Assembly (NCBI GenBank): GCA_951406725.2
Contig: OX597821.1
Coordinates: 13,144,001-13,208,000, forward strand
Direction of reading: 5' to 3'
DNA length: 64,000 nucleotides
From: Octopus vulgaris
Taxonomy: Eukaryota
Shown here: positions 33,722 to 55,472 of the stretch, one piece after another
How the letters are laid out: the number at the start of each line of letters is the position of its first letter
Numbering within the stretch: position 1 is the first letter of the stretch
Program-made: the position numbers and the translations under genes
The notes under the pieces: generated by a model
Told to the model about the DNA's origin: nothing
The model's input: the letters and a program-made list of their open reading frames with translations, nothing else
Database searches by the model: none

Positions 33722-35705
33722 ACGGGAAGCTTTATGAAAATAGACAAAAGACGAAGGCAGGTGGAAAACAAACAAACAATTGTATTAGTATGGCGCTCAG
33801 GAAATATAAATAAAACAAGTATTTAACGTTTCGAGCCTACGCTCTTCAACAGAAAGATACACAGAGAGAAAAAAAACACAGAAAGAAGGAGAGAAAAAAA
33901 TGCGTGCAGTAACTAACGAATCAACATGGCGATCTGATTTCGGCCAGAGGTCAAAGATCAAACATGAGACGCGAGAGCGAAATAAGGGGAGATAATAGGG
34001 TTGATAATAGGGTTGAATGACCCTAGGATAGGTCTGGACAGGCGTATGTATGGGGTTGGTGTATGTATTAGTATGTATTAGTATGTATTAGTACGTATTA
34101 GTATGTATAAGTGTGTGTGTGTGTGTATGAGAGTATAAGTGCGTATGAGGGGTCTGGACGTGTGTATGTATAGGGTTGGTGTATGTATTAGTATGTATTA
34201 GTATGTATTAGTACGTATTAGTATGTATTAGTTGGTGTATGTATTAGTATGGCACATCATATATGATGTGATGTGTAAAGTCGTGTGGTGTAGTGAGGAG
34301 AAGAGGGGGAGAAGAGGGGGAGAAGGGGAGGGGAAGAAGAGGGGAGGAGAGGAGGGGGAGAGAGAGGATGGGGGAGAAGGAAGGGGAGGAGGAGGGGGAG
34401 AAAGGAGGAAAGAGGGGGAGGGGGAGAGAAGGGGAGGGGGGAGAGAAGGGGAGTGAGGGAGCAGAGGGAAGAGGGAAGGAGGGAGGGAGAAAGAGGGAAG
34501 AAGGGAAGGGGAGTAGGGGTGAAAGGATGAAGGACTGAAGAAGTAGGGGTCGGGGGGGGGGAAGGATAGGTGAGGAGGGGGGAGAGAGGGGGGTTAGATG
34601 AAGAGGGGGGAGAGTTGAGACCAAAGGGCGTATAAGAGCGAAGAGAGAAGATTAATTCCTGTTCACGGCGCAAACGGGAATCCGGATGGCCTCTGTGTAA
34701 GGACAAACCGAACACAGATAGGTGTTGCAAGGAGTGACCGGTGGAGCGGAAATGGCGTGAGACCAGTGTGTCGTTCGCAAGGTGGATGTCACGAAGGTGT
34801 TCCGCGAACCGGTCAGCCAAGCGGCGTCCCGTTTGTCCGATGTACAAGGAATTGCAGAGAGAGCAAGAGACGCAATAGATAATATTGTTGGAGGTGCAGG
34901 TGAAGGAGTGGATGATGGGATAGTGTCGATGGTGGGTGCTAGTGAGGCGGGTGGTGTTGGAGAGGTAAGGGCAAGTGCGGCAACGTGGGCGGGAGCAGGG
35001 GAACGAGCCGGGTTGGGAGGTAGGGTCAGGGAAGGAGCTATGGACCAAAAGGTCTCGAAGGTTGTGGGCTCGTTTGAAAGAGGGAAGAGGTGTGAAGTGG
35101 ACGGGTCGGACTGGAGATGACGGAAAGCTCGAAGAATGGTGCGTTGGAGACGTAGGGTCGTGGGGTGGTAAGTGAGGGGAAAAGGGAGACGGGAGACTAC
35201 AGGGCGGGTTCGGGGAGAGAGAGCAGATACACGGTCCACGGACCGTGCTCTGGCAAGGGCGGTGTGGATAGTGGTGAGGGGGTATCCACGTAGGGTGAAG
35301 TGGTGAGCCATACGTTGAGACTGAGTCTCAAAGTCATGGTCGTCACTACAGAGCCTACGTAGACGGAGGAATTGGGAATAGGGGATGGAAAGCTTGGTGT
35401 GTTCTGGGTGGGAGGAAGAGAAGTTGAGGTATGAGTGTGAGTCTGTGTGTTTGTAGTGAATGGAGGTGGTAAGAGTGGAGTGAAGAATGCTAACCGAAAT
35501 GTCGAGGAAGGAGACAGAGATGTTGGAGATAGTGGAAGTGAAGTGGAGGGCTGGATGGAAAGATTGGACGAAAGAGAGGAAGGAATCTAGATGTTCACGG
35601 GAGAGTGAGGTGGCACCGATAATGTCGTCAATAGTTCAGGAGTGGGACCAGTGAAATTAGAGAATATTTGGGCCTCAACATAACCAACGAACAGGTTCGC
35701 ATAGT
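33722..35705 (-). mobile_element. Penelope-like element, 5'-truncated, young (RT thumb + GIY-YIG + 3' UTR with HHR)
   Basis: [74 protein letters not shown]; few frameshifts; both ends in (TA)n. Confidence 0.95.
33820..33858 (-). ncRNA. Minimal hammerhead variant in the PLE tail
   Basis: TTT-CTGTTGA-A-GAGC-GTAG-GCTC-GAAA-CG-TT-AAA. Confidence 0.65.
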
Positions 35706-36129: not shown

Positions 36130-36261
36130 TACAGTTCTATATTTAAAAGATGAGGAATTATGTACATTATTTACATTATTTACATTTGACGGATATTTCT
36201 GCTCATCTTGTTTGTTGTTAACACAACGATTCGGCTGATATACCCTCCAGCCTTCATCAGG
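36130..36261 (-). mobile_element. tRNA-HHR unit, tail-only copy
   Basis: CTGATGAAGGCTGGAGGGTATATCAGCCGAATCGTTGTGTT...; truncated just 5' of the HHR core. Confidence 0.88.
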
Positions 36262-36410
36262 ACTCTTTAGTACGATCGTTCCAATTCAACATAATTTATA
36301 GAACTATACACGAGTTGTCCTCATAAAATTAGACACATCTAATTTTATGAGGACAACTCGTGTATACTTCTATAAATTATATTGAATTGGAACGATCGTA
36401 CAAAAGAATC
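36261..36410. repeat. Fold-back hairpin (73-bp arms, 4-nt loop)
   Basis: Arms 36261-36333 / 36338-36410. Confidence 0.95.
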
Positions 36411-37549
36411 CACGGACGAGAATTGCGTAGGTAAATATTGTTAACGACGAAACCGGTCTACGATTAATTCTTTATTTTGTATATTTTCATCTGTCTTACC
36501 CGCTTTTGTTCGGGAGTTTGCTGAATTTCTCAAGAGAGCATTCTTTTCTTTGTAGTTAGATCGTAGATGATCTTCTTCTATCATATGGGATGTCCACTTA
36601 GTGGTCATCCCTTATTATACGCATGTATTACAATTTTCCTGAATTTTCAGATTTTTCTATATGCTTAGGCTACTAGTTTTAAATTGATGTTAATTAAATT
36701 AATATTCAATTTATCACCCTCATTATTTAAATATATATATTTATGTATATATATATATGTGTATATATATACATATATATATGTATATATATATATATGT
36801 GTGTACATACATATATATGTATGTATGTGTTTATATATATTTATGTGTGTGGGCATGTATTTGCACAAGTTATTTGTATATTTGTATGCTTGTCTATATG
36901 TGTGCGTATTTGTATGTTTGTGTTAATTTTATGTGTGCGGTTTTGTGTGCTTTTCGCAAGCTGAACGAAGCATCTAACTTTCGTTAGGTACTTATAGGAA
37001 CGCCAATCATTTCACTCTCTCTACCTCTATTTTTCCATTTCTCTCTCTAATTTTCTGTTTCTTTTTCTTTTATTTCTTTTTCTTCTTTCCCACCTTTTCT
37101 TTCTCCCCAACCACTCCTACTTGTTATTCTGTGATATTTTTGTTATTTTTTCTTTCGCCTGTAACAACTAACTTGTACAAGCATACTCCAGAAGGTTTTG
37201 TGCGCGCGTGTGTGTGCGTGCGTGCATACATATATATACATTTGTATATATTTATGCTTTGCCTATATATGTCTGTATATGTATGTAGTTATGCACCTAC
37301 GTATGTATGTTTAATGTATATACGTATATTATAGATTGTTTGGTATATTGCTAAATGTATATGTATTTTAAAGTGAAAATTTTTCAAACGGATATATTTT
37401 TTAATTTATTAATTTATTATTATTTTTACAGCTAATTATTTACCCTGGGTATTCAGGCCATTTCATTCTTCATAGGCCATCTTTGATTTAACGTTTTCTT
37501 CAATTTTTATAATAATATAATGTTTAACCGGAACTTGTTATTTCATGCT

Positions 37550-38884: not shown

Positions 38885-38923
38885 TTTTTTCCAAAGAAGA
38901 GCTATGCTCGAAACGTCAAAAAC
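38885..38923 (+). ncRNA. Degenerate minimal hammerhead (PLE-tail type)
   Basis: TTTT-CCAAAGA-A-GAGC-TAT-GCTC-GAAA-CG-TC-AAAA; 5' core mutated. Confidence 0.5.
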
Positions 38924-38970
38924 TCTCTATATGTGCCCTTCCTCTTGTTGTATTTTATCGTTCTTTTTGA

Positions 38971-39154
38971 TACAGTTCTATATTGAAGAGATGAGGAATT
39001 ATTACATTATTTACATTATTTACATTCGACGGATATTTATCTTCATCTTGTTTATTGTTAACACAGCGTTTCGGTTGATATACCCTCCAGCGTTTTTCAG
39101 GTATCTTGAGGAAATTTCGAACCTGGGTTCTCATTCCTAAGGTATTTTTCGATG

Positions 39155-39237
<83 letters not shown>

Positions 39238-39281
39238 GCTGCTGTTGTTGTTGTTTTCTTTCTTCACCACTACGCCATATG
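38971..39281 (-). mobile_element. tRNA-HHR unit, inverted copy with most of the head deleted
   Basis: Reverse complement of 39286-39583; retains ACCACTACGCCATATG at 39266-39281. Confidence 0.9.
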
Positions 39282-39285
39282 ACTT

Positions 39286-39364
39286 GGGCATATGGCGTAG
39301 TTGTTAAGAGCGCGGGTTACTAACCACAAGATTCCGAGTTCGATTCCAAGCAATGACCTGAACA

Positions 39365-39425
<61 letters not shown>

Positions 39426-39583
39426 TAATAACATCGAAAAATACTTTAGGAATGAAAAATCAGGTTCGAAATTTCCCCAAGACACCTGAAGAATGTTGGA
39501 GGGTATATCGGTCGAAACGTTGTGTTAACGACAAACAAGATGAGGACAAATATCCCTCGAATGTAAATAATGTAAATAATGTG
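39286..39583 (+). mobile_element. tRNA-HHR unit: A/B-box head + (AAT)n + hammerhead tail
   Basis: A-box TGGCGTAGTTG (39293), B-box GTTCGATTCC (39338), HHR GACAC-CTGAAGA...GAAA-CG-TT-GTGTT (39481-39526). Confidence 0.88.
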
Positions 39584-40293
39584 CGTTATTTTGATGTTTT
39601 TTTATTCAATTTCACTACTATACTCTGATAGTTGTGTTCAGTTGCTCAGCAGAGGCAACAGGAAGCATTCTCAGTCATGTTTCCCACTAACGCATTCGCT
39701 GATAATACTAATGCAATTTGTTCATACTCAACATTCTAGTAATATTGTTTAATTGACTTGCTTTACAGTTTATACCCACCATGATTAACTACAAGTATTG
39801 GCTCGCAATCACAAGATTTTAGCAAGAAAAGAAGCGCTAGAGTAAACGTCTTTTTAAAATCCTTCTTATATAAGTTATACTGGAGGAGAAGAAAAAAAGC
39901 TATAGATACAAATATATCAGGTAAAAAATAGATAACTTAAAACCATTATGCATAACTCGTTTTGATTAGAATGTCACAGAACTCTGACGTGCATCTGACA
40001 CTGATGAGAATTTCTTGTGGGAGATCTTAACTGGATAAAAAAAAAGGCAGCAACAACAAAGAATACTGCAATCAAGTGAAGCTCCACAAGTTGTATTCTC
40101 TGCTTTCACTTGATTTCCTTACCTATAATTATATTTTCTATTTAGATTTATTTATTTATCTATCTGTTGTTCTTTATAGAGGTAATGTTGTGCTTTTTTT
40201 TATGACTGTTGAGCTCCAGTGACAAGCGAAAGATCGTGATCTACTATATATACATATATTTGTCTGTATGTATGTATATATGTATATATATAT

Positions 40294-55163: not shown

Positions 55164-55472
<309 letters not shown>

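What the first reader, a model, noticed from the sequence alone, without database searches (positions are those of the whole stretch)
39286..39583. tRNA/Pol III head fused to a hammerhead tail: a candidate Penelope-mobilised SINE-like element
Seen: a roughly 300-bp unit in four copies (36130-36261 -, 38971-39281 -, 39286-39583 +, 55164-55472 +). It has a tRNA-like head with A-box (TGGCGTAGTKG) and B-box (GTTCGATTCC), a variable (AAT/AAC)n linker, and a minimal HHR with consensus GACAC CTGATGA A GGCTG..CAGCC GAAA CG TT GTGTT. I found no poly(A) or LINE-type tail and no TSD. Known: SINEs normally borrow LINE 3' tails, while minimal HHRs mark PLE pLTRs. Inference: a Pol III-transcribed, ribozyme-processed parasite of PLEs, or a pLTR that captured a tRNA promoter. 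I do not know this combination as a recognised class.
Basis: partly seen in the sequence, partly recalled or inferred. Interest (0 to 1): 0.88.

Follow-up and report, generated by a model that had tools for sequence, protein, structure and literature searches.

The report
Penelope retrotransposon with tRNA-derived promoter
This repeat is the terminal repeat of an abundant protein-coding jumping gene (a Penelope-like element) that starts with a tRNA-like promoter sequence and has no polymerase III stop signal along its whole length, so it is likely transcribed by the polymerase that makes tRNAs, which I found described only for non-coding elements; transcription itself is untested.

Summary
The unit is real, but it is not a free-standing SINE. 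It is the pseudo-LTR (pLTR) of an autonomous Penelope-like element (PLE) with a 784-codon RT + GIY-YIG-type ORF that ends 32 nt before the head. The 38971-39582 pair is one head-to-head insertion with a one-sided tail and a decayed target-site duplication. The head is tRNA-derived (best match tRNA-Arg). Only one of the four window copies has a whole head.

New here:
- 39 of 67 head-bearing copies begin within 7 nt of tRNA position 1.
- The 2.6-kb sense strand has no run of four T; related PLE loci carry 5.2 per kb.
- Short and ORF-linked copies share subfamily variants.
- Copy ends ignore the ribozyme cut site.

Best reading: Pol III likely starts at the head and reads through the element, and internal reverse-transcription start at the tail gives both short units and long copies. 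Rivals: a hairpin or a Pol II start causes the cliff; an independent SINE. RNA-seq was uninformative. The scan noted this family before on other DNA (e1-9583789, e1-9538922, e1-9549991). tRNA-SINE plus hammerhead is known in schistosomes.

The parts
38959..38970 (+). Left copy of a decayed 11-12 bp target-site duplication flanking the inverted pair
   Evidence: differs from the right copy by one substitution and one T
38971..39003 (-). One-sided ~35-bp PLE 'tail' extension, on the left arm only
   Evidence: 28 of 32 pairs have it on one arm, none on both
38971..39290 (-). Left arm: inverted pLTR copy with A-box kept, B-box region deleted, (AAC/AAT)n, decayed HHR (about 39059-39104), tail
   Evidence: shares two subfamily variants with the right arm
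39286..39361 (+). tRNA-derived head (tRNA position 1 at 39286; A box 39293-39303 with one change; B box 39338-39347)
   Evidence: family head vs 41 tRNA sequences of this genome: best tRNA-Arg, score 64 vs shuffled maximum 55 in 1000
39362..39431 (+). (AAT)n linker of variable length
39432..39480 (+). pLTR middle with the ATG (39452-39454) that is in frame with the ORF when the pLTR lies upstream of it
39481..39526 (+). Minimal type I hammerhead, decayed in this copy (core at 39486, GAAA 39514-39517, predicted cut after 39521)
39527..39582 (+). AC-rich tail; also encodes the ORF N-terminus in an upstream pLTR; short 3'-end class
39584..39594 (+). Right copy of the target-site duplication
55164..55472 (+). 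Separate 5'-truncated pLTR copy starting at the B box; best-folding HHR of the window (55376-55421)
36130..36267 (-). Headless pLTR fragment (HHR core to tail extension) joined to another HHR-bearing repeat

Best explanation
The unit is the terminal repeat (pLTR) of an autonomous Penelope-like retrotransposon whose first 72 bases are tRNA-derived, and this head likely acts as the element's internal RNA polymerase III promoter.

Shown: element layout, tRNA origin, sharp 5' boundary of copies at the head, absence of T4 runs, insertion signature.

Inferred: Pol III starts about 6 nt before tRNA position 1 and, meeting no terminator, reads through pLTR, ORF and the next pLTR into flanking DNA. The PLE protein nicks both target strands and starts reverse transcription inside the RNA at the tail (as shown for the anole element PAc), so the RNA needs no poly(A) or ribozyme-made end. 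Starting at the first pLTR, or on RNA from a solo pLTR, gives the abundant ~280-bp SINE-like unit ending at the transcription start. Starting at a later pLTR gives ORF-bearing, variably truncated copies. The two arms join head to head between target-site duplications. The hammerhead would mostly stay uncut in templates.
For: - ORF end, spacer, head: 49 of 50 EN-selected loci (48 of 49 without the query locus), including 19 of 20 chosen without regard to the head.
- pLTR directly upstream of the ORF start in 19 of 29 loci.
- One 784-codon ORF in a majority profile of 72 segments; RVT_1 hit. The HHR/tail peptide aligns with a 40%-identical homologue's N-terminus.
- 5' ends of 67 head-anchored copies: 14 at +10..+22, 39 at -7..+7, 8 at -8..-228, 6 further. 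Per-base stop rate 8.5% at the head start vs 0.4% upstream. Estimated about 18,000 head vs 2,300 spacer copies.
- In L368 an arm starts one base into the head although its partner is a long ORF arm, so no palindrome is needed.
- A-to-B box spacing is 45 nt.
- Zero T>=4 runs in 2,636 nt: synonymous shuffle mean 2.7, P=0.037; base shuffle P=0.009.
- Decayed copies carry 0.32 T4 per kb (O/E 0.15) vs 5.2 per kb (O/E 1.76) in 51 related loci, 2 of which have none. Same-genome controls keep T4: another PLE 5 in its ORF; A-rich retroelement clusters 7 vs 7.2 and 5 vs 2.5 expected.
- Short and ORF-linked copies share variants and age.
- Internal RT start and dispensable HHR cutting: PMC11167929.
Against: - No transcription data support Pol III.
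- The head start carries one of the six strongest local hairpins of the element (top 1% of 24-nt windows), and many copies show a short fold-back there, so a hairpin could cause the cliff.
- Of 19 upstream pLTRs only 3 reach the head; 2 run past it into the ORF end and none stops at the head start. This needs multi-unit templates or an upstream promoter.
- The T4 test is on one ancestral sequence; P is only 0.037 under the strictest null, and G4 runs are also absent (expected 1.1). The related loci are distant (27-56% identity) and not independent of each other.
- How an uncapped RNA would be translated is unexplained; Kojima 2024 (PMC10886601) argues that autonomous partners must use Pol II.
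- Pfam did not call the GIY-YIG domain in own copies.
Confidence: 0.6

Rival explanations
1. Ordinary Pol II PLE with a passenger tRNA/SINE fragment in its pLTR; the 5' cliff comes from the hairpin at the head start or from a Pol II start site there, and T4 absence is chance.
For: Strong hairpin at the boundary; fold-back remnants at -7 in 11 of 67 copies; known PLEs start transcription in the pLTR (PMC8557442 passages); upstream pLTRs can run past the head; T4 P=0.037 under synonymous shuffling.
Against: The similarly stable HHR stem II gives no cliff (0 of 30 tail-anchored arms start at +150..+185). Many boundary copies have no palindrome. The cliff sits where A/B-box geometry predicts. T4 density is about 16-fold below relatives.
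Confidence: 0.27
2. Pol III makes only the short pLTR RNA, so solo units behave as a SINE mobilised in trans by the PLE protein with master copies of their own, while the ORF is transcribed by Pol II.
For: Head-bearing copies outnumber spacer-bearing ones about 8:1; solo units carry promoter boxes and the tail; precedent in Sm-alpha/Sj-alpha.
Against: No diagnostic variant among 29 sites (smallest p=0.02, at a CpG, uncorrected); similar divergence, median 3.7% vs 4.3%; the head is fixed in the autonomous element; T4 absence in the ORF is left unexplained.
Confidence: 0.1
3. Retrozyme-like cycle: hammerhead cutting and circularisation define the RNA.
For: HHR consensus is intact, and the only subfamily-level change in the core is at the free position 7 (108 T, 32 A of 142); upstream pLTRs running into the ORF end would fit a circle.
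Against: Neither end of copies maps to the cut; no tandem arrays of the unit were seen; a cut in the upstream pLTR would separate the ATG from the ORF; PAc insertion does not need cutting.
Confidence: 0.03

Closest known systems
Penelope/Poseidon-type EN+ PLEs (PAc, PMC11167929, main text read; PLE structure, PMC8557442 passages; min-HHRs, PMC4209133 parts 1-2 of 4)
   Same: Single RT + C-terminal endonuclease ORF, partial-tandem pLTR, inverted 5' arm, one-sided 30-40 bp tail, minimal HHR overlapping the ORF start
   Different: The pLTR begins with a tRNA-derived A/B-box head, copies pile up at that head, and the sense strand has no T4 run; no tRNA or Pol III promoter is mentioned in the passages I read
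TRIMp3: Cassandra, Helenus, Ajax (PMC10886601, passages)
   Same: Small-RNA-derived Pol III promoter inside a terminal repeat, probably from a SINE insertion
   Different: Those are non-autonomous LTR elements of 0.3-1.3 kb with PBS/PPT; this is an autonomous, protein-coding PLE
Schistosome Sm-alpha / Sj-alpha SINE-like elements (PMC2770079, passages; the primary papers were not available)
   Same: tRNA-derived short repeat carrying a hammerhead
   Different: Canonical HHR, described as SINE/satellite; here a minimal HHR, and the unit is part of its own autonomous element
Non-LTR retrozymes (PMC7761336 passages; bioRxiv 10.64898/2026.07.22.740005 part 1 of 5)
   Same: Short HHR repeats related to PLE pLTRs
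   Different: Tandem arrays cut at the HHR; here dispersed inverted pairs whose ends ignore the cut

Membership tests
EN+ Penelope-like element | Single ORF with RT | tested here: met
   784-codon ORF; RVT_1 36.8 bits over cut-off 29.6 in 1 of 4 fragments
EN+ Penelope-like element | C-terminal GIY-YIG endonuclease | tested here: inconclusive
   No Pfam hit on own copies; homologues P0009 (40% identity) and P0021 carry PF01541; motif recognised by eye (recalled)
EN+ Penelope-like element | Partial-tandem pLTR upstream of the ORF | tested here: met
   19 of 29 loci
EN+ Penelope-like element | Inverted 5' arm and one-sided 30-40 bp tail | tested here: met
   18 of 25 insertions inverted; tail on one arm in 28 of 32 pairs
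EN+ Penelope-like element | Minimal HHR in the pLTR | tested here: met
   cleavage not testable
Penelope/Poseidon clade | RT phylogeny | not tested
   No tree built; clade name is by recalled resemblance
tRNA SINE | tRNA-derived head with A and B boxes | tested here: met
tRNA SINE | Pol III transcription | not testable with these tools
   Indirect only
tRNA SINE | Non-autonomous lineage whose head is absent from the partner element | tested here: not met
   Head is part of the autonomous element; no private variants
tRNA SINE | Poly(A) or LINE-type 3' end, each unit between TSDs | tested here: not met
   PLE tail; TSDs flank the pair
Non-LTR retrozyme | Tandem HHR repeats with ends at the cut site | tested here: not met
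TRIMp3 | Non-coding LTR element with PBS and PPT | tested here: not met
   Coding PLE with pLTR

The most novel reading that the evidence does not exclude
An autonomous, protein-coding retrotransposon that has switched to RNA polymerase III: it captured a tRNA-Arg-like promoter in its pLTR and purged Pol III terminators from its whole 2.6-kb body, so one Pol III unit yields both the RT/endonuclease element and about 16,000 SINE-like short copies.
Probability: 0.5. Interest if true: 0.85.

Novelty: new variant of a known kind. Interest (0 to 1): 0.68.

Why it matters
Autonomous retroelements are taken to need Pol II (R2 using Pol I is recalled), and Pol III promoters are described only in non-coding SINEs and TRIMs. 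A Pol III-driven coding element would raise the question of cap-independent translation and show a route by which SINE-like repeats arise from an element's own promoter. Even if Pol II makes the mRNA, the cliff maps a likely PLE start site from genomic copies alone. It also warns that some 'SINEs' in octopus repeat libraries may be PLE ends.

Tried and rejected
- ARAGORN and Rfam gave no tRNA or hammerhead call on the unit at default settings. 4 heads are called only at a 90% score threshold.
- tRNA-Ser(GCT) as source looked good alone (P=0.001) but scores below two Arg tRNAs. Only 11 tRNA types were compared, so the isotype is tentative.
- Read-through of the ORF across head and linker in L028 is a one-copy deletion; the family ORF stops before the head.
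- A headless subfamily was sought among 20 loci and with a distant homologue as query; all 30 loci fetched belonged to the same family.
- A parent SINE with the same head and another body was not seen among 16 copies lacking the tail.
- Preferential HHR core conservation in copies: none (4.7% vs 4.3-5.7%), as expected for dead copies. The lower B-box rate (2.2% vs 5.5%) is not trusted because of alignment and base bias.
- RNA: no RNA holder listed. Three unstranded RNA-seq runs of another species label cover both strands equally, follow copy number and show no start or end peak; uninformative.
- Literature searches found no PLE with a tRNA/Pol III promoter. Repbase, Dfam, SINEBase sequences, subscription papers (Ohshima and Okada 1994; Ferbeyre 1998; Laha 2000) and all supplements were not seen, so the family may already be in a repeat library.

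Full report
Observation. The window comes from a 2.8-Gb animal genome, octopus-like by its repeat content (my inference). The focal unit has the parts described: A-box-like and B-box motifs, an (AAT)n linker, a minimal hammerhead and an AC-rich tail. The other three places are partial. The left neighbour lacks the B box, 55164 starts at the B box, and 36130-36267 has no head and is fused at the HHR core to a different HHR repeat. The focal HHR is decayed; the copy at 55376 folds as predicted.

It is a pLTR. One tail-selected locus had an endonuclease-like frame just upstream of the head. A protein search with it scored 150 of 30,070 candidates. In 49 of 50 such loci (the query locus among them) the ORF end is followed by a short spacer and the head. 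The first 30 were biased because the query included the head; of 20 picked because their match stopped at the ORF end, 19 still carry it. Of 29 further loci found with the ORF start, 19 have the pLTR tail fused directly upstream at a fixed junction. A majority profile of 72 segments gives one 784-codon ORF. RVT_1 is detected in 1 of 4 fragments tested. The endonuclease is not detected by Pfam in own copies, though two homologues carry PF01541. The only in-frame ATG of the pLTR lies 118 nt after the head start and 34 nt before the HHR core. The peptide encoded by HHR and tail aligns with the N-terminus of a 40%-identical homologue. Contigs from three of four other species labels bridge the ORF-head junction in the listed pieces.

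Insertion signature. 18 of 25 tail-anchored insertions are head-to-head pairs. In 28 of 32 pairs one arm has the ~35-bp tail extension and the other lacks it. 14 of 32 pairs share at least 8 flanking bases, against 0.9% of mismatched flanks. The window pair 38971-39582 fits this: tail on the left arm, decayed TSD outside. This matches the PLE pattern in PMC8557442 (passages). In PAc the tail marks internal RT start sites and HHR cutting is not required (PMC11167929 main text). Here too the 3' ends lie about 50-65 or 92-95 nt past the predicted cut.

The head. Default tRNA finders miss it. Against 41 tRNA sequences of 11 types from this genome the best match is tRNA-Arg (score 64; best-of-41 for 1000 shuffles at most 55). 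The first G of the head aligns to tRNA position 1, and the A-to-B spacing is 45 nt.

5' cliff. I took the first 67 places of the head 24-mer list, without selection. 14 start at +10..+22, 39 at -7..+7, 8 at -8..-228 and 6 further up; the stop rate is 8.5% per base at the head start vs 0.4% upstream. Of 30 perfect-head copies, 23 end within 7 nt. Exact counts corrected for divergence give roughly 28,000 tails, 18,000 heads and 2,300 spacers. A hairpin at this boundary is among the six strongest in the element, so stalling is a real alternative. But the similar HHR stem II gives no cliff, and in L368 an arm starts one base into the head next to an ORF arm. That SINE transcripts start 12-14 nt before the A box is recalled; position -6 fits it.

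Terminator test, set up before counting. The 2,636-nt sense profile has 0 runs of four or more T and 31 of A. The synonymous shuffle expects 2.7 (P=0.037), the base shuffle 4.6 (P=0.009); G runs are also 0 (expected 1.1). 34 decayed copies carry 0.32 per kb (O/E 0.15); they descend from one ancestor and are not independent. 51 of 80 related metagenome loci with at least 450 matched bases, after duplicate removal, carry 5.2 per kb (O/E 1.76), and 2 have none. In the same genome another PLE has 5 in its ORF and two A-rich retroelement clusters are not depleted.

SINE or by-product. 84 head-start copies and 56 ORF-linked copies share all 29 variable sites at similar frequency and have similar divergence. 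I therefore see no separate SINE lineage, with limited power. The HHR core decays like its flanks in 142 copies; 42 keep core and stem II.

Against. Only 3 of 19 upstream pLTRs reach the head, 2 pass it and none stops there; this needs multi-unit templates, as described for PAc, or an upstream promoter. Translation of an uncapped RNA is unexplained, and Pol III may supply only the template RNA. No expression evidence was obtained.

Comparison. It meets most EN+ PLE features tested; the endonuclease test was inconclusive and the clade was not tested. It works like a TRIMp3 in promoter logic (PMC10886601, passages), but those are non-coding LTR elements, and that paper states autonomous partners must use Pol II. 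A tRNA-derived SINE with a hammerhead is known from schistosomes (PMC2770079, passages). Nine searches found no PLE with a tRNA promoter. The octopus repeat annotation PMC13282606 (part 1 of 3 and term search) has no hit for hammerhead or ribozyme; its library was not seen. Earlier scan notes describe the same family; I read them after reaching the pLTR reading and took one paper from them.

Verdict. PLE pLTR about 0.95; tRNA origin about 0.9; Pol III start at the head about 0.6; full-length Pol III transcription about 0.5. New variant of a known kind; interest 0.68.

Noticed in passing
window 36262-36720: A different non-coding, T-rich repeat with its own long-stem hammerhead-like motif (at least 175 candidates, no ORF match), here as a 70-bp-arm hairpin and joined to this family's HHR exactly at the shared core.
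   Followed up: partly
window about 34400-35640 (-): Fragment of a young PLE family (copies 99% identical, 1,422 candidates) with a C/T-rich sense strand, a pyrimidine-rich ORF end and its own pLTR with an atypical HHR-like core; used as control.
   Followed up: partly
window 8299 (+), 47976 (-), about 38895-38925 (+): Further HHR-like motifs of other repeat families.
   Followed up: no
L028 1022-1552: A spacer deletion lets the ORF read through head and (AAT)n (poly-Asn) to the TGA of the HHR core; seen in this copy only.
   Followed up: yes
family HHR position 7: The only subfamily-level change inside the HHR core is T/A at the free position 7 (108/32 of 142), a hint of selection in source elements.
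   Followed up: partly
G000 C3:70.85-70.90 Mb; C7:103.87-103.89 Mb: Clusters of tRNA-Ser(GCT) genes, 18 and 7 matches.
   Followed up: no
L016, L075, L141, L216: The (AAT)n linker is often interrupted by other SINE or LINE insertions, which separates head from HHR in some copies.
   Followed up: partly
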